From contig JBPOID010000001.1 of the NCBI GenBank assembly GCA_052034805.1, positions 28,184-92,183 on the forward strand: a stretch of 64,000 bases of DNA, written 5' to 3'. Shown here piece after piece: positions 40,194 through 45,418 of the stretch. Position 1 is the stretch's first letter. Each line of letters starts with the position of its first letter. Under the pieces are notes generated by a model. That model searched no databases. It was not told the DNA's origin and saw nothing but the letters and a program-made list of their open reading frames with translations. The DNA comes from Candidatus Tayloriibacteriota bacterium. Its GTDB lineage: Bacteria > Patescibacteriota > Minisyncoccia > Phycocordibacterales > PALSA-1337. The position numbers were made by a program, and so were the translations under genes.

Positions 40194-40214
40194 AGCAAAT
40201 TAATACTAACTAGT

Positions 40215-40652
40215 ATGTTTACCTTTAGTCAATATCCTTATAAAAAAATATCCAATATATTAATGAAAGCCAAGAAAAGCCGGGAGCGTAAAGAGATAAT
40301 TCAGGCTCTTATTTCATTTACTGATATTTTATACAAAACTATTTCCAATATTTCATCTTATAAACCATTAATATTATTCACAATTGATCCTAATATGATT
40401 TTTCCAGGAAAACATAGAGAATTATCTACTGAAAAACTCGAAACAGAAATAACATCATCTGGCTATATTGATCAATTATTAGAAATAATTGGTATTTATA
40501 ATCATAGAGAAATATCAGATTCTATATCAGACGCTATATCAGACTTGCATGCAGATATGTCTCGTGGGATTAAAGATATTTCTGAGAAAAAAGAAATATT
40601 AATTAACTCTATTAATAATTTAAAAAAGGTTTTGCAGGATTTAGTATATTAA
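40215..40652 (+). CDS. Hypothetical protein (host-like AT-rich)
   Basis: ORF only. No recognisable domain. Confidence 0.35.
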   Translation: MFTFSQYPYKKISNILMKAKKSRERKEIIQALISFTDILYKTISNISSYKPLILFTIDPNMIFPGKHRELSTEKLETEITSSGYIDQLLEIIGIYNHREISDSISDAISDLHADMSRGIKDISEKKEILINSINNLKKVLQDLVY

Positions 40653-40660
40653 TTTTTAAG

Positions 40661-40677
40661 CTCTATAACACTACCAT
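40661..40677 (+). repeat. Island direct repeat copy R1 (CTCTATAACACTACCAT, followed by CTAAACCCTAAA)
   Basis: Core 17-mer shared with copies at 41331, 41721 and 42146. Confidence 0.75.
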
Positions 40678-40784
40678 CCTCTAAACCCTAAAAAATCAAC
40701 AAATTTAATATCCGCAAGAATCGTCCCCATTTTTTATTTTCAATCTCATCTTATTCATAAGCATATAAAGATGGTTTTATATAA

Positions 40785-40824
40785 CAAGTAAAATTAAACC
40801 GCACTTTGCATAAGCATTGTGCGG
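40785..40824 (-). terminator. Rho-independent terminator downstream of island ORF A
   Basis: Minus-strand hairpin CCGCAC-14-GTGCGG followed by TTTAATTTT. A second hairpin GTGACAG/TGTCAC lies at 40834-40859. Confidence 0.45.
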
Positions 40825-40953
40825 TCTCAAAATGTGACAGTTTGTTCTCGAGATGTCACCCATCTCAACGTACTGCATACGAGGCTCACGCTTTTAAAAA
40901 GGTGACAACAATGGAGCTTCTGAATTGAAGGCGGCTCCATCCTTCATTCGTCA

Positions 40954-41214
40954 CTATCCTGCGATAGCTATGAACGTGCCTTGCTCAATAACATGCTTTG
41001 GGTCCACAAATGGTCCGTACCCCTCGATGTAAAGATGGTAAAAACCAATCGAATCCCGAGAGCAGGCCAAGACAGGGCTTTTGAACCCAAAGAGGAGTAA
41101 CGATATTTCCTCATAGGATGCAACATTCATTTTCTCACGTCTCAATTCCTCCAAGATTTCTCCAAGAGGTTTTGACTTATTGACGTGGACGAAAGTGTGT
41201 TTGCTGAGGCTCAT
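40954..41214 (-). CDS. Island ORF A, 86-aa hypothetical protein (MSLSKHTFVHVNKSKPLGEILEELRRE...)
   Basis: ATG at 41214 with AAAGGA SD 5 nt upstream. The track's longer form starts at a TTG. G+C-rich. Confidence 0.5.
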   Translation of the reverse strand: MSLSKHTFVHVNKSKPLGEILEELRREKMNVASYEEISLLLFGFKSPVLACSRDSIGFYHLYIEGYGPFVDPKHVIEQGTFIAIAG

Positions 41215-41290
41215 AAAGGTCCTTTTTCTGGTGCTCAAAGGCGCACCTGCTTAAAGCCTTGAAATTCAATGATCTAATTACTTATATCAT

Positions 41291-41299
41291 TATATCACA
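41291..41299 (-). promoter_or_regulatory. Extended -10 (TGATATAAT) for island ORF A
   Basis: Minus-strand TGATATAAT (plus-strand sequence ATTATATCA at 41291-41299). About 70-nt leader with a hairpin GGTGC/GCACC. Confidence 0.35.
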
Positions 41300-41330
41300 C
41301 TTACAGTATAATGTACAGTTTAAACCCAAA

Positions 41331-41347
41331 CTCTATAACACCACCAT
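41331..41347 (+). repeat. Island direct repeat copy R2 (CTCTATAACACCACCAT, preceded by TAAACCCAAA)
   Basis: Lies in the divergent A/B promoter region, about 60 nt upstream of the ORF B start codon. Confidence 0.8.
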
Positions 41348-41358
41348 TTCCTCAATCA

Positions 41359-41387
41359 TTGACTAATGACTATTATAATGCTATTCT
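41359..41387 (+). promoter_or_regulatory. Putative promoter of island ORF B (TTGACT-17-TATTCT)
   Basis: TTGACT at 41359-41364. A TATAAT at 41374-41379 is only 9 nt away, too close to pair with it, so TATTCT at 41382-41387 is proposed as the -10. Confidence 0.3.
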
Positions 41388-41407
41388 GATTTCAGAAAGG
41401 AAGTGCT

Positions 41408-41659
41408 ATGGCCACACAAATACCGGAGCAATTTATTTCCAAACTCAGTGAATTCATCTCGAGTCTGGACCATCAGACTCAGGAGATCCTTTTGTACTAT
41501 TACGGCGCAGATCAATCATGGAAAAAGAGAACTCTACAACAAGTCGAAGACAGATTTCATGTGGGAACAAGTATCGTCGGTAAGGTTGTTGCAGAACAAA
41601 TCTCTGAATTTCGACAACTGCATAATTTCGACTATGCCACTTGCATGATCCTCATGTAG
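41408..41659 (+). CDS. Island ORF B, 83-aa sigma-70 region-4 / YlxM-like HTH protein
   Basis: QEILLYYYGADQSWKKRTLQQVEDRFHVGTSIVGKVVAEQISEF aligns with sigma r4.2 [18 protein letters not shown] and the YlxM pattern LYY.DDLSL.EIAEEFDVSRQAV. SD AAAGGAAG. Confidence 0.55.
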   Translation: MATQIPEQFISKLSEFISSLDHQTQEILLYYYGADQSWKKRTLQQVEDRFHVGTSIVGKVVAEQISEFRQLHNFDYATCMILM

Positions 41660-41672
41660 ACTGATCTCTAAG

Positions 41673-41708
41673 CGGCGCTGCTATTAAATTTGCAGTGCCG
41701 TTTTTTGT
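41673..41708 (+). terminator. Rho-independent terminator of ORF B
   Basis: CGGCGCTGC-9-GCAGTGCCG hairpin plus TTTTTT. Confidence 0.6.
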
Positions 41709-41720
41709 TTACAATTTAAA

Positions 41721-41737
41721 CTCTATCTCACCACCAT
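41721..41737 (+). repeat. Island direct repeat copy R3 (CTCTATCTCACCACCAT)
   Basis: Sits between the convergent terminators of ORF B and ORF C. Confidence 0.8.
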
Positions 41738-41744
41738 CTTCTCC

Positions 41745-41775
41745 CAACAGAAAACCCACCTCTCATGCATGGGTT
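41745..41775 (-). terminator. Rho-independent terminator of ORF C
   Basis: Minus-strand AACCCA-11-TGGGTT hairpin followed by TTTTCTGTT. Confidence 0.45.
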
Positions 41776-41796
41776 CTCCGTGCTTGAGATAGTGGG

Positions 41797-42075
41797 TTAG
41801 ATTCGGACAAACAATTTCTGGTAGAGCTCATCAAACTGCCCCACCGGATGTTCTGACAAAAACTGTTCGAAGTAGTTCTGCGCATCTGGATGTAAAACCG
41901 AACTGTCTCTGGTTCCCAAATTACAGTTGATTTTCCCGTTGCTCGCAGCCGTTACCATTGCAACTCGTCGGCTTTGCACAACTGCTTGACGGTTGGTCAA
42001 GATGTCAGCCAGAACCACAAGTGCGACACGCTCAGCTTCTGTCAATGTCTGCCATAACTGTTCAAGTTTTTTCAT
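41797..42075 (-). CDS. Island ORF C, 92-aa hypothetical protein (MKKLEQLWQTLTEAERVALVVLADIL...)
   Basis: ATG with AAAGGA SD 9 nt upstream. Promoter TTGACA-17-TAGACT. No recognised domain. Confidence 0.5.
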   Translation of the reverse strand: MKKLEQLWQTLTEAERVALVVLADILTNRQAVVQSRRVAMVTAASNGKINCNLGTRDSSVLHPDAQNYFEQFLSEHPVGQFDELYQKLFVRI

Positions 42076-42100
42076 TGTGCTAAATCCTTTCTTACTTTAT

Positions 42101-42129
42101 AGTCTAATACATTTTAGTTCTTGTGTCAA
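42101..42129 (-). promoter_or_regulatory. sigma70-type promoter TTGACA-17-TAGACT for ORF C
   Basis: Minus-strand TTGACA (plus 42124-42129) and TAGACT (plus 42101-42106). Confidence 0.45.
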
Positions 42130-42145
42130 GTACATAAACCCTAAA

Positions 42146-42159
42146 CTTTATCTCACCAC
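42146..42159 (+). repeat. Island direct repeat copy R4 (CTTTATCTCACCAC, preceded by AAACCCTAAA)
   Basis: Lies exactly between the divergent -35 boxes of P_C (42124-42129) and P_D (42169-42174). Confidence 0.75.
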
Positions 42160-42168
42160 TTTTTACAC

Positions 42169-42198
42169 TTGACATAAGTTATTAAGTCATGTTATGAT
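42169..42198 (+). promoter_or_regulatory. Near-consensus extended -10 promoter TTGACA-18-TGTTATGAT
   Basis: TTGACA at 42169-42174, TGnTATGAT at 42190-42198. Confidence 0.55.
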
Positions 42199-42204
42199 AC
42201 TTAA

Positions 42205-42392
42205 CAGATTGAGTAGCCGTTGACGATACATACGATTCAACAGATGTCGGATTCAAGATGCAGCCGGAAATACTACAAGTATTATCGGAAGTCAATCATT
42301 GACGACAGGATCGTTGATATTAGGCTAAGGCCGAAAAGTCCAAGAATGGGTACTCTTCTAGCCACAATCAGAAATGATTGTGGCATTTTTTT
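42205..42392 (+). ncRNA. Candidate ~185-nt small RNA (island unit D). The track ORF 42220..42405 is probably not translated.
   Basis: Strong promoter and a strong terminator (9-bp stem GCCACAATC/GATTGTGGC at 42361-42384 plus T7) bracket about 185 nt. There is no SD before the TTG or ATG start, and the ORF reads through the terminator hairpin. Internal hairpin CCGGAAATAC-5-GTATTATCGG. Confidence 0.4.
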
Positions 42393-42431
42393 GTTCGAAC
42401 CTTAAAGTTTATGGTACTACTATACTCTAAC

Positions 42432-42460
42432 TTGACGATATTAGTAATACTTGTTATGAT
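42432..42460 (+). promoter_or_regulatory. Second copy of the extended -10 promoter (TTGACG-17-TGTTATGAT)
   Basis: Near-duplicate of the 42169-42198 promoter (ACTTGAC[A/G]...TGTTATGAT). Confidence 0.5.
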
Positions 42461-42466
42461 TATCCG

Positions 42467-42563
42467 CATGAAGATCTTTAATCAAGTGAATTAATAGAAC
42501 TACAAGGCCACGGCAATCATTTTCAAGCGCTCATTTCTTCGGATTTGAGCGCCTTTATTTTTA
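42467..42563 (+). ncRNA. Candidate ~95-nt small RNA (island unit 2)
   Basis: Promoter at 42432-42460, terminator hairpin GCGCTCA-13-TGAGCGC (42527-42552) plus CTTTATTTTT. Longest ORF 8 aa. Contains GCCACGGCAATCATTTT, similar to one arm of the unit-D terminator. Confidence 0.35.
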
Positions 42564-42640
42564 TAGACTACAATTTAATAAAAAAGAACGCCGTACCCGA
42601 AGGTCGTGCATTCTGTTTGAAAGTTTTGAGGATTAAATCC

Positions 42641-43060
42641 TCATGATATCGCCTCTTCGATTGTTTTTTTCCAGTGAAGAGCGAATTGCTCTTCATCCTG
42701 GGCCTCCCCACTCCGTCCACAGAAAGGGGGATACACATCAATCGCCTTAATCTTATGGTATAGTCCATGGTCCAGACCTCTATACGGAGTGACCACAATG
42801 ACGCCATTCAGGTTTTCTGGAAGTCCCGTGTCTTCACAACATGGACAAGCGGTTAAGACAAAGAGTGTTCTGGGATCACAGGCATTTTTTGATGCCACTT
42901 CTTGTACCACCCTATGAATGATTGGTGTCATCTTTAAGAGACTCTTTGCAAGTTCGTGAGATGCCCATTCAAAAGGACTTGAATATCCAAAGATAATTTT
43001 CATAATATAATTTGGTTGAGTGTGGTTTGAAAGTTCATAATCTGCATGACATGATGTCAT
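42641..43060 (-). CDS. Island ORF E, Cys-rich 120-139-aa protein (start at 43060 or at the internal MKIIFGY at 43003)
   Basis: MKIIFGYSSPFEW ... LTACPCCEDTG ... PPFCGRSGE. No SD at either start. Promoter TTGACA-17-TAATAT. Weak resemblance to Rossmann-like N-terminal motifs (Ndt/DNPH1-like [KT]I[IY]FG, or DsrE-like); not secure. Confidence 0.5.
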   Translation of the reverse strand: MTSCHADYELSNHTQPNYIMKIIFGYSSPFEWASHELAKSLLKMTPIIHRVVQEVASKNACDPRTLFVLTACPCCEDTGLPENLNGVIVVTPYRGLDHGLYHKIKAIDVYPPFCGRSGEAQDEEQFALHWKKTIEEAIS

Positions 43061-43127
43061 ACAAGTCGATTACAATCTTTCTTCCAAACTCAACGTATTT
43101 ACTTTCAAAGAACTCTACTATATAGAT

Positions 43128-43156
43128 ATATTATCATACTATATGATATATGTCAA
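43128..43156 (-). promoter_or_regulatory. sigma70-type promoter TTGACA-17-TAATAT for ORF E
   Basis: Minus-strand TTGACA (plus 43151-43156) and TAATAT (plus 43128-43133). Same architecture as the 35641-35669 promoter. Confidence 0.45.
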
Positions 43157-43192
43157 GTGTATTTGTATAGTGTATAGATAATGTATACCCCC

Positions 43193-45418
43193 CTACTTCG
43201 CCACCTTAACCGCCTCATCAAACTGTATTGATAATAACTTCGAAGCCCCATCAGAACCCATAGTGACTCCATATAGAACGCCCGCACGTGACATTGTTTC
43301 TCTATTATGAGTTATAAGTATTAATTGTGAATATTTTGATAAATTACTTATCATATCTCCATATTTTCTAGAATTAGCTTCATCGAGAGCTGCATCTGTT
43401 TCGTCTAATATGATAAATGGTGGAGGATTAACTTGGGAAATAGCAAAAAGAAGAGCAATGGATGTCAAAGCTCTTTCTCCTCCAGATAACATCATAAGTC
43501 CTTTAACTTTCTTTCTTGGTAGATTTACATTTATTTCTAGACCTTCCCTGCCTTCTTCCTCTTCTTCTATTTCTTCTTCTATATTTGTATCATCATTCAT
43601 TGCCAATACTCCTTCTAGATCTGTATCTGATTTCTTCTTTCTTTTCTTTTCTAGAACTACATTCAAAGATGCGGTACCACCTCCGAACATCAATGAAAAG
43701 AATTCTTGGAATTGTGCATTTATCTTTAATATACCTTCTTTGAATTCTATATTTATTCTGAGATCTAGATCTGCTATTAGATTATTTAGTGATTGTTTTG
43801 AATTTTCTAAATCAGCTAATTCCCTAGACAAGAAAGCGTCTCTTTCTTGTACTTCTCTATATTCTTTCATAATATCTCCGCTATTGCCTATTCCAGAATC
43901 CTCTAATCTTACTTTTATTTTTTCTATATTCTTCTTTCTTTCTGTTTGTCTATCTCTATTTTCACTTTCTATTATTTCTAAATCCTTATAATCAACAGCT
44001 TCTCTACCTACCACTAGATATGCTTCATGTAATTCTCTTTTGAATGATTCCTCATCTATGAGCAATCTTTCTTCTCTGGTCTTTATGCCATTTAATATTC
44101 CACGTAATTCATTTTGTCTTGCTATTATTCTGAATATATTTTTCTCAGCATCTCTATCGCTATCCTTCTCTCTTTCTATTCTATGTCTAAGCTCATTGTA
44201 TTCTATATTTTTATCTTTTTCTTTATTTTCTATCTCTTTTATTTTCAAATCTAATTTGCTTTTCTTATCCTTTAATATAGAAATTTCTCTTTCTAATTCT
44301 GCTGTATTTGTAGATATATCTTTATTTTTATGTAAAGAAATAAAATTAGATAATATTTTCTTTATCTCTAAAATACTTTCTAAAAGATTAACTTTTTCTA
44401 TTACTTGTTCTATATCTCTTAGATATACAGTTTTATTATCATCTTTATTCTGTCTATCTTTTTCTTTTTGTATAATCCTTTCCGAGCCAGATATTTCTCC
44501 TTCTATTTTGCCTAATTCATGGAAAATACTGTCTTTTTCTCTTCTTATTTCATACAAAGTCTTTTCTAAAGAAATTAATTCATCACTTTTTGCATCTCTA
44601 TTCTTTGAACTTTCTAAATTCTTTCTTGCTAAAGATATTTCATTATCTAGAGATGATAATTCTTTTATTATGGGTGATTTCTTTTCATCGATTTCTTTCT
44701 TTTCATTTTCTATATATAGTTCTTCTCTTTTGAAAAATTCTTTATAGATTTTCCTAAGCTCATTTCTTAATTCTTGGGCTTTTTCTACTTTCTCTACTTG
44801 CTTTTGTAGGAATTTCATATGAGGGGCTATTTCCCTTCTTAGAGATTCTACAGATTTCATATTTTCTTCTGTCTTTTCTAATTTTCTTTGACTTTCGGTT
44901 TTCTTGTATTGATAGATTTTCAATCCTAAAGCATCTTCTATCATTTCTCTTCTTTCACGAATATTAGTATTCAATATTCTATCTGCTTCACCCTGAGATA
45001 TAATATGATGTCCAGAAGCTCCTATATGAGCATGTGCCAGTAATTCTATTATATCCTTTAGTCTTGCTCCGCTACCGTTTATAAAATACTCATTTACATT
45101 ATCTCTATGAACTACTCTTTCTATGGTGACTTCATCGAAATCTAGATTGAGCATTCTTTTGCTATTATCAAAAGTAACCTTTACTGAGGCTCGGTTTAAT
45201 TTATTACCATCGCTACCCGCAAAGATTAGATCTTCACCCCTCTTTCCACGCATGCTCTTTATGGATTGTTCTCCAAGTACAAAACGAAATGCTTCAGCGG
45301 CATTACTTTTACCCGAACCATTTGGTCCGACTATGGCAGATATCGGTGAAGTAAAATTCAAAGAAGCCTTTTTTGCAAAAGACTTGAAACCTGTCATCTC
45401 TAGGGATTTGAGATACAT
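43193..45418 (-). CDS. smc: SMC-family ATPase, short (741 aa) and apparently hinge-less
   Basis: N-terminal FKSFA...IVGPNGSGKSNAAEAFRFVLGE, C-terminal LSGGERALTSIALLFAI...ILDETDAALD, long Lys/Glu-rich coiled coil. No Gly-rich hinge motif seen. Confidence 0.8.
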   Translation of the reverse strand: MYLKSLEMTGFKSFAKKASLNFTSPISAIVGPNGSGKSNAAEAFRFVLGEQSIKSMRGKRGEDLIFAGSDGNKLNRASVKVTFDNSKRMLNLDFDEVTIERVVHRDNVNEYFINGSGARLKDIIELLAHAHIGASGHHIISQGEADRILNTNIRERREMIEDALGLKIYQYKKTESQRKLEKTEENMKSVESLRREIAPHMKFLQKQVEKVEKAQELRNELRKIYKEFFKREELYIENEKKEIDEKKSPIIKELSSLDNEISLARKNLESSKNRDAKSDELISLEKTLYEIRREKDSIFHELGKIEGEISGSERIIQKEKDRQNKDDNKTVYLRDIEQVIEKVNLLESILEIKKILSNFISLHKNKDISTNTAELEREISILKDKKSKLDLKIKEIENKEKDKNIEYNELRHRIEREKDSDRDAEKNIFRIIARQNELRGILNGIKTREERLLIDEESFKRELHEAYLVVGREAVDYKDLEIIESENRDRQTERKKNIEKIKVRLEDSGIGNSGDIMKEYREVQERDAFLSRELADLENSKQSLNNLIADLDLRINIEFKEGILKINAQFQEFFSLMFGGGTASLNVVLEKKRKKKSDTDLEGVLAMNDDTNIEEEIEEEEEGREGLEINVNLPRKKVKGLMMLSGGERALTSIALLFAISQVNPPPFIILDETDAALDEANSRKYGDMISNLSKYSQLILITHNRETMSRAGVLYGVTMGSDGASKLLSIQFDEAVKVAK

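What the first reader, a model, noticed from the sequence alone, without database searches (positions are those of the whole stretch)
40661..42159. Four same-orientation copies of a 17-25 nt direct repeat, one in every intergenic gap of the island
CTCTATAACACTACCAT (40661), CTCTATAACACCACCAT (41331), CTCTATCTCACCACCAT (41721) and CTTTATCTCACCAC (42146) each have an adjacent TAAACCC(N)AAA element. There is a possible degenerate fifth copy, AACTCTACTATATAG, at 43113-43125 in the ORF E promoter region. Spacings of about 390-670 bp rule out a CRISPR array or iterons. All copies are on the + strand although the flanking genes alternate strands. R2 and R4 sit inside divergent promoter regions, and R4 lies exactly between two -35 boxes. 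R3 sits between convergent terminators. This pattern fits an operator for a dedicated regulator (the region-4-like HTH protein B is the obvious candidate), or cassette-boundary recombination sites, or promoters for a non-sigma70 polymerase.
Basis: seen in the sequence. Interest (0 to 1): 0.75.

Follow-up and report, generated by a model that had tools for sequence, protein, structure and literature searches.

The report
Integrase att repeats bounding gene cassettes
The repeats are recombination (att) sites of a phage-type integrase from candidate-phyla-radiation bacteria; each copies the last codons of the ychF gene and marks a border between small self-contained gene or small-RNA cassettes stacked in tandem, an integron-like arrangement I found no description of for these bacteria in the held literature.

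Summary
The four same-strand repeats are real. A weight matrix built only from unrelated metagenome copies scores R3, R1, R2 and R4 at 37, 31, 27 and 8.7 bits. Shuffles reach at most 6.6 bits, and 931 kb of related genomes give no hit above 8.

They are not operators. On the reverse strand each repeat reads as the C-terminus of the GTPase YchF (…EDGGVIEFK(I/L)*). The "TAAACCC(N)AAA" element is the alternative tail, F-R-V-stop.

In 14 environmental contigs the same about 35-nt motif forms same-orientation arrays. In five independent contigs these arrays end in a real ychF 3' end. In others the motif lies about 350 bp from a tyrosine integrase. In two phage-like contigs it sits beside int as attP.

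One contig pair differs by two cassettes inserted exactly between repeats. ORF C of the window recurs in two other genomes with the same repeats on both sides and unrelated neighbours.

The island is therefore a tandem array of at least five promoter–gene/sRNA–terminator cassettes bounded by att sites. It sits at a non-canonical place, the SMC/RNase R junction of a Taylorbacteria-like genome. The window holds no integrase and no ychF.

The array is probably a fossil. How it arrived is unknown.

The parts
40658..40681 (+). R1, the distal att copy (AAGCTCTATAACACTACCATCCTC). The reverse strand reads E-D-G-S-V-I-E-L-K-N-stop. Its left flank is AT-rich host-like DNA directly after the ORF145 stop.
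   Evidence: (31.5 bits)
40683..40706 (+). Possible decayed copy R1b (AAACCCTAAAAAATCAACAAATTT, 16 of 24 bases match the consensus).
   Evidence: score 0.0, not significant on its own
40799..41317 (-). Cassette 1 cargo. ORF A spans 40954-41217 (ATG, 87 aa) or extends to 41238 (TTG). Its promoter is at 41317-41289 and its terminator hairpin at 40799-40826. The public gene callers did not call this ORF.
41319..41351 (+). R2: left arm TTTAAACCC plus core AAACTCTATAACACCACCATTTCC.
   Evidence: 27.2 bits
41359..41706 (+). Cassette 2: a promoter, ORF B (41408-41659, 83 aa, weak sigma-70 region-4-like HTH, no relatives) and an intrinsic terminator at 41673-41706.
41707..41741 (+). R3: left arm GTTTACAATTT plus core AAACTCTATCTCACCACCATCTTC. 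The reverse strand reads G-E-D-G-G-E-I-E-F-K-L-stop.
   Evidence: (37.2 bits)
41742..42132 (-). Cassette 3: terminator hairpin (AACAGAAAACCCACC…), ORF C (41797-42075, 92 aa) and a promoter with its -35 at 42129-42124. The whole unit recurs in L164 and L168 between the same repeats.
42133..42166 (+). R4: left arm CATAAACCCT plus a decayed core AAACTTTATCTCACCAC(3-nt deletion)TTTTTAC.
   Evidence: (8.7 bits)
42169..42392 (+). Cassette 4: promoter (42169-42198) and a structured ~190-nt RNA (42205-42392) with a terminator at 42361-42392. There is no convincing ORF.
   Evidence: (z = -5.9)
42393..42427 (+). R4b, a degenerate copy (GTTCGAACCTT + AAAGTTTATGGTACTACTATACTC). It is recognised by its architecture, not by its score.
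   Evidence: (-1.5 bits)
42432..42563 (+). Cassette 5a: promoter (42432-42460) and a short RNA (about 42467-42563) with a terminator.
42582..43156 (-). Cassette 5b. The terminator is at 42582-42627. ORF E spans 42641-43003 (120 aa from ATG), or 139 aa if extended to 43060. A conserved structured leader lies at about 43004-43110 and the promoter at 43156-43128. The terminator and leader are shared with a cassette in L164. No repeat can be recognised between 5a and 5b, or at the SMC stop.
40215..40652 (+). ORF145, an AT-rich orphan that forms the left flank of the array. It is absent from relatives.
43193..45418 (-). SMC gene, the right flank. Its 3' end is native and conserved in relatives that lack the island.

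Best explanation
**What the repeat is.** The repeats are core-type attachment (att) sites of a family of tyrosine integrases carried by temperate phages and integrative elements of Patescibacteria (candidate phyla radiation). The natural chromosomal target of this family is the last codons of ychF.

The site has three parts:
- a strongly conserved right arm, TAT(A/C)ACACCACCATCTTC. On the reverse strand this reads …DGGVIEF and mimics the YchF C-terminus;
- an overlap region of about 8-10 bp, TCTTAAACTC, where strand exchange is inferred;
- a weaker left arm, CCTAAATCTT or CCTAAACCCT. On the reverse strand this reads K-I-stop or R-V-stop and supplies a replacement gene tail.

**How an array forms.** A circular element carrying such a site recombines with the chromosomal site. 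Repeated insertions at the gene-proximal copy stack the elements head to tail, so each element is bounded by a hybrid site. All sites therefore point the same way, whatever the orientation of the cargo genes.

**The window.** The island is such an array of at least five small units:
- ORF A;
- ORF B;
- ORF C;
- a structured RNA;
- a short RNA plus ORF E.

Each unit has its own sigma-70 promoter and intrinsic terminator.

**Shown versus inferred.**
- Shown: membership of the motif family; its link to the ychF 3' end and to the integrase; indels at the repeats; recurrence of the C cassette.
- Inferred: the crossover position; that the mini-cassettes are mobilised in trans by the phage integrase rather than being decayed prophages; that the window array is now an inactive fossil at a secondary site.
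For: **1. The window copies belong to a motif family found elsewhere.** The independent weight matrix scores R1-R3 at 27-37 bits and R4 at 8.7 bits. There are no hits above 8 bits in 931.5 kb of related loci.

**2. Other contigs carry arrays of the motif.** 14 environmental contigs carry same-orientation arrays of the motif, spaced 150-1500 bp apart.

**3. The arrays end in ychF.**
- In five independent contigs (L093/L142, L153, L148, L144, L091) the last copy is the true 3' end of ychF, reading …GKEY(I/V)V(K/R/Q)DGDV(I/M/V/L)EF..*.
- The L153 protein matches PF06071 (YchF-GTPase_C) at E = 3.8e-31.
- The window copies, reverse-translated, read GEDGGEIEFKL*, GNGGVIEFGFK and EDGSVIELKN*.

**4. 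The motif is linked to an integrase.**
- A tyrosine integrase (PF00589, E = 3.7e-26) lies about 350 bp from the motif in L127, L120 and L140, and its flank sequence follows the motif in L109, L112 and L151.
- Homologues at 68% and 89% identity sit in phage-like contigs. L158 has endolysin-like and holin-like ORFs (read from the translations), int, the motif, then DnaA_C and RusA genes. L159 has int, the motif, then Acb2/Tad1 and methylase genes. The motif lies 316-345 bp 3' of int, which is the attP arrangement.
- The L159 attP has dyad symmetry: AAGGACGGTGGTGTTATA | TCTTAAACTC | TATCGCACCACCATCTTC.

**5. Cassettes are present or absent exactly at the repeats.** L140 and L151 share the same left flank and the same integrase-side junction. 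L140 has two extra cassettes inserted exactly between repeats.

**6. A window cassette recurs elsewhere.**
- ORF C has nine representative relatives with E below 0.001.
- In L164 and L168 the homologue is flanked on both sides by the motif. The relative orientation, the terminator hairpin and the -35 box abutting the left arm are all the same.
- The neighbours differ: the L164 array starts at a ligA 3' end, and the L168 cassette lies between SpoU-methylase and Fpg/H2TH genes.
- Similarity to the window is confined to the R3-R4 interval.

**7. Another window cassette shares modules with L164.** The E cassette shares its terminator (96% of 46 nt) and its 5' leader with an L164 cassette.

**8. 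The site is a hotspot.** In relatives the SMC/RNase R junction is either 10-40 bp long or filled with variable accessory DNA.
Against: - The 64-kb window has no integrase and no ychF.
- The array is not at the canonical target. The SMC-proximal end has no recognisable copy: the best site there scores -15 bits with 13 of 24 bases matching, and the SMC 3' end is native.
- No repeat separates the short RNA from ORF E.
- R4 and R4b are decayed.
- All four public assemblies of this locus are identical apart from one SNP, so no excision or insertion polymorphism is seen for this island itself.
- Only one of the two attP examples shows clear dyad symmetry.
- Recombination activity has not been demonstrated for any member.
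- The L140/L151 difference could also have arisen by homologous recombination between the repeats.
Confidence: 0.8

Rival explanations
1. The repeats are att scars as above, but the short units are not autonomous mini-cassettes. They are leftovers of full-length prophages or islands that integrated one after another and were then almost entirely deleted.
For: - Tandem accretion followed by decay is common at tRNA and gene 3'-end targets (established knowledge).
- An integrase-bearing element sits in the same array as short units in L109 and L140.
- R4 and R4b are decayed.
Against: - The units are complete promoter-gene-terminator modules packed flush against the sites.
- None carries a fragment of int or of the integrase-proximal arm.
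- Internal junctions all have both the element-type left arm and the element-type right arm.
- The C unit is conserved as a whole, from repeat to repeat, in three genomes at different loci.
Confidence: 0.25
2. The motif is an operator (or stoperator-like site) for a dedicated regulator, with ORF B as the candidate. It would control the island's promoters.
For: - R2 and R4 lie between divergent -35 boxes.
- B has a weak sigma-70 region-4 match, E = 0.025, below the Pfam cut-off.
Against: - B has no relative at all, while the motif occurs in many contigs without B.
- R3 lies between convergent terminators, and R1 is downstream of a terminator.
- The motif is a copy of a coding 3' end and is linked to an integrase.
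Confidence: 0.03
3. The motif is a promoter-associated element (an UP-like or activator site, or a promoter for another polymerase). Its spread reflects duplication of a promoter module.
For: In many cassettes a TTGACA box follows the core by 4-8 nt (R4, R4b, L093, L153). In others a -35 box on the other strand abuts the left arm.
Against: - Other copies are followed by terminators, by integrase flanks, or are inside ychF itself.
- Orientation is uniform whatever the transcription direction.
- The indel between L140 and L151 is bounded by the motif.
Confidence: 0.05
4. The sites are dif-like Xer sites. The units would be Xer-exploiting elements (IMEX) or dif modules rather than substrates of a phage integrase.
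For: - The integrase is about 300 aa with SAM-like and catalytic domains, and sources often label it XerC or XerD.
- IMEX elements also build same-orientation tandem arrays (established knowledge).
Against: - The integrases lie inside phage gene sets next to the motif.
- The site is the 3' end of ychF in five contigs, not an intergenic terminus site.
- The motif does not resemble the 11-6-11 dif consensus (my reading of the sequence, not a formal test).
Confidence: 0.05

Closest known systems
Integrons: IntI integrase, attI, and attC-bounded cassette arrays, including chromosomal 'superintegrons' and CALINs
   Same: - Tandem array of short units, here 0.15-1.5 kb.
- Cargo is mostly orphan genes plus toxin-antitoxin modules: a HigB/ParD-like pair in L164 and Fic/DOC in L144.
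- Recombination sites all point the same way.
- A tyrosine recombinase is involved.
- Arrays can occur without a nearby integrase, as in CALINs.
   Different: - The sites do not fold as hairpins. They are an about 35-bp double-strand-type core that copies a gene's 3' end.
- Cassettes carry their own promoter and terminator and lie in either orientation.
- The integrase is phage-borne next to an attP, not a resident IntI with attI and a Pc promoter.
- The anchor is the end of a housekeeping gene.
Lambda-type site-specific integration into the 3' end of a gene, with tandem accretion of islands (tRNA, tmRNA and protein-gene targets; ychF is already reported as a target region for a pneumococcal prophage and for some pipolins, PMC8637289 and PMC11551731)
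   Same: - The element carries a copy of the target's 3' end and restores the gene.
- Direct repeats mark the element ends.
- int lies next to attP.
- Successive insertions give arrays.
   Different: - The units are far smaller than any self-sufficient integrative element and lack int.
- Internal junctions look like intact element sites.
- Arrays also occur away from ychF: at ligA, between SpoU and Fpg, and at SMC in this window.
- The host group (Patescibacteria) and this integrase/att pair are not described in the papers I could search.
Xer-dependent IMEX arrays at dif, and pdif modules of Acinetobacter plasmids
   Same: Small modules without their own recombinase, bounded by short recombination sites and mobilised in trans. 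IMEX elements also form tandem arrays.
   Different: - pdif sites alternate in orientation, whereas these all point one way.
- The site is not dif-like.
- The recombinase is phage-encoded.
Mycobacteriophage L5 'stoperators' (asymmetric repressor sites in short intergenic gaps), the nearest known form of the operator reading
   Same: Short asymmetric sites in many intergenic gaps.
   Different: Stoperators are oriented with respect to transcription and go with a repressor. Here orientation ignores transcription, the candidate regulator is unique to this island, and the motif is an integrase site.

Membership tests
att sites of a ychF-targeting tyrosine integrase (phage or island integration module) | The repeat sequence equals the 3' end of the target gene. 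| tested here: met
   In five independent contigs the terminal array copy is the ychF stop region. The window copies translate to …DGG(V/E)IEFK(L)*. No ychF is present in the window itself.
att sites of a ychF-targeting tyrosine integrase (phage or island integration module) | An integrase gene lies adjacent to the site, and an attP lies inside contiguous phage DNA. | tested here: met
   Met in related loci only: L127, L120, L140, L158 and L159. Not met in the window, where tblastn finds no integrase.
att sites of a ychF-targeting tyrosine integrase (phage or island integration module) | Presence/absence polymorphism with break points at the repeats. | tested here: met
   L140 versus L151. The C cassette sits between repeats in three different contexts. 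None was seen for the window locus itself.
att sites of a ychF-targeting tyrosine integrase (phage or island integration module) | Core site with inverted integrase-binding arms around a short overlap. | tested here: inconclusive
   Clear in the L159 attP and weak in L158. Left arms of array copies are degenerate.
att sites of a ychF-targeting tyrosine integrase (phage or island integration module) | The integrase binds and recombines the site. | not testable with these tools
   Needs biochemistry or an in vivo assay.
Integron (IntI + attC cassettes) | attC sites fold as imperfect hairpins on one strand. | tested here: not met
   DNA folds of all four sites on both strands are no better than shuffles (z from -0.1 to -1.8). 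The only helices found are the flanking promoter palindrome and the terminator.
Integron (IntI + attC cassettes) | Cassettes are mostly promoterless, co-oriented and expressed from Pc next to intI/attI. | tested here: not met
   Each unit has its own promoter and terminator, and the genes alternate strands. There is no integrase in the window.
Integron (IntI + attC cassettes) | The integrase carries the IntI-specific extra domain. | not tested
   The associated integrases match plain PF00589, some with PF02899. The IntI insertion was not examined.
Xer/dif (IMEX, dif modules) | 28-bp 11-6-11 site bound by host XerC/D at the replication terminus. | tested here: inconclusive
   No resemblance to the dif consensus by eye. 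The site is inside ychF and next to phage int. Terminus position could not be tested.
Operator of a dedicated regulator (ORF B) | The motif co-occurs with the regulator in other genomes. | tested here: not met
   B has zero relatives. The motif is present in more than 15 unrelated contigs.
Operator of a dedicated regulator (ORF B) | Sites are positioned at promoters. | tested here: not met
   R3 lies between convergent terminators and R1 lies beyond a terminator. Only R2, R4 and R4b abut promoters.

The most novel reading that the evidence does not exclude
Patescibacteria may have a previously undescribed integron-like gene-capture system. In it, minimal cassettes of 0.15-1.5 kb each carry their own promoter and terminator plus an attP of about 35 bp that mimics the ychF 3' end. 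Temperate-phage tyrosine integrases would mobilise them in trans. The cassettes would accumulate in arrays downstream of ychF and at secondary sites such as this SMC/RNase R junction. The result would be a shared pool of orphan small proteins, toxin-antitoxin pairs and structured small RNAs.
Probability: 0.4. Interest if true: 0.8.

Novelty: new variant of a known kind. Interest (0 to 1): 0.65.

Why it matters
Candidate-phyla-radiation bacteria have tiny genomes, and little is known about how they acquire accessory genes.

- **A gene-capture route.** A cassette system that borrows a phage integrase and a housekeeping-gene tail as its recombination site would be a compact route for gene capture in these organisms. 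It would parallel integrons but be mechanically different.
- **Origin of orphan genes.** It would explain where some of their many orphan small genes and small RNAs come from.
- **A search handle.** The roughly 35-nt motif, together with the position downstream of ychF, gives a simple way to mine such cassettes from metagenomes.
- **For this window.** The result turns an apparent regulatory motif into a marker of horizontal acquisition and defines the borders of each acquired unit.

Tried and rejected
**Database searches that found nothing useful**
- Rfam, at gathering and at permissive thresholds: no known RNA in the island.
- Pfam, PHROGs and PADLOC on the island ORFs: only a sub-threshold sigma-70 region-4 hit for B.
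- blastn of the island against the phage and plasmid collections: no match.
- Homologue searches for B and E: only the proteins themselves.
- Two motif scans of IMG/VR: single chance hits inside coding regions, with no integrase nearby.
- AlphaFold model of C (pLDDT 77.5) and Foldseek against the PDB: no match.
- Literature searches found no description of this system.

**Ideas tested and rejected**
- Paralogy among the island ORFs: none.
- attC-like folding: not found.
- Motif copies in the SMC/RNase R gaps of 26 related genomes: none.
- Ghost copies of the SMC 3' end in this gap and in 12 relatives' gaps, and other boundary repeats in four relatives' gaps: none. The hotspot is therefore not explained by an SMC-targeting integrase.
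- SMC stop region as a secondary att site: only 13 of 24 bases match, which is not significant.
- ORF C against the similar-looking 89-aa ORF in L011: no alignment.
- Integrase or ychF in the window: none.
- A 57%-identical integrase in a Komeilibacteria prophage lacks the motif, so only the closer clade (68% identity or more) is linked to it.
Full report
**The observation**

The region holds a family of four direct repeats, all on the + strand, with cores at 40658-40681 (R1), 41328-41351 (R2), 41718-41741 (R3) and 42143-42166 (R4).
- A degenerate 17-mer finds three exact copies and one copy with three mismatches. All four lie inside the island, and none of 100 shuffles reaches the observed count.
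- The island runs from about 40.66 to 43.19 kb. Its G+C is about 0.36-0.47, against 0.25-0.33 in the flanks.
- The "TAAACCC(N)AAA" element is not enriched in the window as a whole.
R4 lies between divergent -35 boxes. R3 lies between the terminator hairpins of B and C.

**The setting**

- The flanking genes are RNase R (+) and a 741-aa SMC (-). The closest SMC relatives, at 72-76% identity, are in Candidatus Taylorbacteria/Paceibacteria MAGs, that is, Patescibacteria.
- In those relatives the convergent SMC/RNase R junction is either 10-40 bp long or holds 0.2-4.4 kb of unrelated accessory DNA. The site is therefore a variable hotspot.
- None of the relatives' gaps holds the motif.
- The same locus occurs in four public assemblies and is identical apart from one SNP.
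- ORFs B and E have no relatives among 5.8 billion proteins.
- Nothing in the island matches Pfam, PHROGs, PADLOC, Rfam, phage records or plasmid records, apart from a sub-threshold sigma-70 region-4 hit for B.

**The key result**

A scan of public metagenome contigs with AAACTCTATMWCACCACCAT returned 74 loci. Most are chance hits or copies of one conserved gut gene. Fourteen environmental contigs (G+C 0.37-0.52) instead carry same-orientation arrays of the motif, spaced 150-1500 bp apart. Their extended consensus is CCTAAATCTT·AAACTCTAT(A/C)ACACCACCATCTTC.

- **ychF.** In five independent contigs (L093/L142, L153, L148, L144, L091) the last copy of the array runs, on the opposite strand, into a coding 3' end reading …GKEY(I/V)V(K/R/Q)DGDV(I/M/V/L)EF(K/R/M/W)(I/V)*. 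The L153 protein matches YchF-GTPase_C (PF06071, E = 3.8e-31) and the GTPase domain.
- **Ghost copies.** The repeat is therefore a ghost copy of the end of ychF, stop codon included. The window copies reverse-translate to GEDGGEIEFKL* (R3), GNGGVIEFGFK (R2), EDGSVIELKN* (R1) and KSGEIKFRVY (R4) (and my reading of the sequence).
"TAAACCCTAAA" is the reverse complement of TTT-AGG-GTT-TA, which reads F-R-V. This is the alternative YchF tail seen in L091 (…EFRV*) and in L109 (CCTAAACCCT·AAACTC).
- **Independent score.** A weight matrix built from the 25 non-window copies scores R3 37.2, R1 31.5, R2 27.2 and R4 8.7 bits. The best score in shuffled windows is 6.6 bits. 931.5 kb of related Paceibacteria DNA gives no hit above 8 bits.

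**Link to an integrase**

- In L127, L120 and L140 a 305-aa tyrosine recombinase (PF00589, E = 3.7e-26) ends about 350 bp from the motif. L109, L112 and L151 carry the flank sequence of the same element directly after the motif.
- The integrase family has more than 360 clusters. The named ones come from Komeilibacteria, Parcubacteria, Moranbacteria, Uhrbacteria and "Patescibacteria group" MAGs.
- Two closer homologues (68% and 89% identity) lie in phage-like contigs. L158 has endolysin-like and holin-like ORFs (my reading of the translations), int, the motif, then DnaA_C and RusA genes. L159 has int, the motif, then an IstB/DnaA-like gene, Acb2/Tad1 and a methyltransferase. The motif lies 316-345 bp downstream of int, which is the classical int-attP arrangement.
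- The L159 attP has clear dyad symmetry around a 10-bp spacer: AAGGACGGTGGTGTTATA | TCTTAAACTC | TATCGCACCACCATCTTC. The L158 site is much less symmetric.
- A 57%-identical integrase in a Komeilibacteria prophage lacks the motif.

**Evidence that the repeats are cassette borders**

1. L151 and L140 share the same left flank and the same integrase-side junction. L140 has two extra units (49→365→702) inserted exactly between repeat copies.
   - The three base differences between the flanking copies place the exchange point in or left of TTAAACTC. On the gene strand this is GAGTTTAA, the Glu-Phe-Lys codons.
   - That position agrees with the spacer of the L159 attP. It is an inference from one pair of contigs.
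2. ORF C of the window has nine representative relatives with E below 0.001 in 1.8 billion proteins.
   - In L164 and L168 the homologue is flanked on both sides by the motif.
   - The relative orientation, the terminator hairpin (AACAGA(A/G)AACC(C)ACC…) next to the right arm, and the -35 box (TGTCAA on the motif strand) abutting the left arm are all the same.
   - The neighbours are unrelated. The L164 array starts at a ligA 3' end and also holds a HigB/RelE-like plus ParD-like pair. In L168 the single cassette lies between a SpoU methylase gene and an Fpg/H2TH gene.
   - Similarity to the window is confined to the R3-R4 interval.
3. The E unit shares its terminator (window 42582-42627; 96% of 46 nt) and a 5' leader of about 110 nt with another L164 cassette, although the ORFs are unrelated.
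4. A common design recurs across arrays.
   - Forward type: repeat, 4-8 nt, TTGACA promoter, short ORF or RNA, intrinsic terminator, T-run, left arm, next repeat.
   - Mirror type: the terminator follows the right arm, and the gene's -35 box on the other strand abuts the left arm of the next repeat.
   - R4 and a degenerate copy at 42404-42427 (R4b) fit the forward design. A, C and E fit the mirror design.

**Mechanism**

The most economical reading is site-specific recombination.
- A circular element with site P·O·P' inserts into H·O·Y, where Y is the ychF end. The result is H·O·P'–body–P·O·Y.
- Repeated insertion into the gene-proximal copy gives internal junctions of the form P(n)·O·P'(n+1).
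- This matches what is seen. Internal copies carry both element-type arms. The gene-proximal copy carries the ychF version (…CACATCACC…, DGD) rather than the element version (…CACACCACC…, DGG). Distal copies have unrelated left flanks.
- It also explains why all copies share one orientation while the genes alternate strands.
- In the window, R1 has a non-element, AT-rich left flank, as expected for a distal junction.

**Unexplained points**

- The window has no ychF and no integrase.
- The SMC-proximal end has no recognisable copy. The SMC 3' end is the native, conserved sequence, and only 13 of 24 bases match there.
- No SMC-derived repeats exist here or in the relatives' gaps.
- The array is therefore either a secondary-site insertion whose proximal junction has decayed, or a piece of an array moved here by another route. 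I cannot tell which.
- With R4 and R4b decayed and no polymorphism among the assemblies, the array is probably inactive now.

**Alternatives**

- **Operator for ORF B.** B has no relatives while the motif is widespread, and R1 and R3 are not at promoters.
- **Promoter element.** This does not explain copies next to terminators, copies inside ychF, or the indel bounded by repeats. The tight packing of promoters against the site is nevertheless real.
- **Integron attC.** The sites do not fold, and the cassettes carry promoters in both orientations.
- **Xer/dif-type system.** This cannot be fully excluded, because the integrase has Xer-like architecture. The integrases nevertheless sit in phage gene sets beside the site, and the site is a gene's 3' end.
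- **Decayed prophages or true mini-cassettes.** This remains open. Compact complete units, the absence of integrase remnants, and the conservation of the C unit from repeat to repeat favour mini-cassettes.

**Novelty**

Integration into gene 3' ends and tandem accretion are well known. ychF has been reported as a target region for a pneumococcal prophage and for some pipolins (PMC8637289, PMC11551731). Three searches of the held literature did not find arrays of promoter- and terminator-equipped mini-cassettes bounded by a ychF-mimicking att site in Patescibacteria. I rate this a new variant of a known kind.

Noticed in passing
window 42205-42392 (+): A transcript of about 190 nt has a strong sigma-70 promoter (42169-42198) and an intrinsic terminator. 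It folds into a long hairpin (-61 kcal/mol, z = -5.9, 0 of 200 shuffles as good). It has no Rfam match and no convincing ORF. It is the sole cargo of one cassette.
   Followed up: partly
window 43004-43110 (-), and L164 1585-1700: A conserved 5' leader of about 110 nt is shared by two cassettes whose ORFs are unrelated. It folds as a long hairpin with 29 pairs, 3 of them compensatory between just two sequences. It may be a cis-regulatory RNA. It implies that ORF E really starts at ATG 43003 (120 aa).
   Followed up: partly
window 42582-42627 (-), and L164 1441-1486 and 2227-2272: The same terminator module (CAAACAGA..GCACGACCTTCGGGTACGGCGTTCTTTT) ends three different cassettes in two genomes. 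Another hairpin (AACAGAAAACCCACC…) is shared by the window's C cassette and by cassettes in L093, L140 and L164. A close variant (GAAACCCC(A/G)CCTCT…) follows the repeat in L109.
   Followed up: partly
window 41797-42075 (-): ORF C belongs to a small conserved family of 87-98 aa proteins with the motif LW..LT..ER.AL.VL.D.LTNR…DST.L…F.ELY..L. The AlphaFold model is all-helical (pLDDT 77.5) with no PDB fold match. Function is unknown.
   Followed up: partly
window 40194-43192, compared with L008-L076: The convergent SMC/RNase R junction is a hotspot for accessory DNA in Taylorbacteria-like genomes. It is empty (10-40 bp) in some genomes. In others my reading of the ORF translations (not run against Pfam) suggests a nucleotidyltransferase-type toxin-antitoxin pair (L015), antirepressor-like (ORF6N-type) genes (L022, L024), a 1294-aa protein (L020) or orphan ORFs with promoters directly after the SMC stop. 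No shared boundary repeat was found.
   Followed up: partly
window 40215-40652 (+): ORF145 is an AT-rich (about 25% G+C) orphan between RNase R and the island. It has no homologue in any related locus, so it is itself accessory DNA of a different origin from the island.
   Followed up: no
L163 1686-1964: The closest ORF C homologue (61% identity) lies directly downstream of a uvrB 3' end in a contig with 55% G+C. It has the same terminator hairpin but no recognisable repeat, so cassettes can persist after losing their sites.
   Followed up: no
L109 (motif-oriented) about 695-760: The distal repeat copy is half of a long perfect palindrome, GAGTTTAAAATCTGATGGGC-TCT-GCCCATCAGATTTTAAACTC. The ychF tail and its complement thus form a terminator-like hairpin, which may hint at how the dyad-symmetric core arose.
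   Followed up: no
window 40954-41238 (-): ORF A has a good promoter and terminator, but none of the public assemblies called it as a gene, and its exact sequence is absent from the protein collection. Its coding status is uncertain.
   Followed up: no
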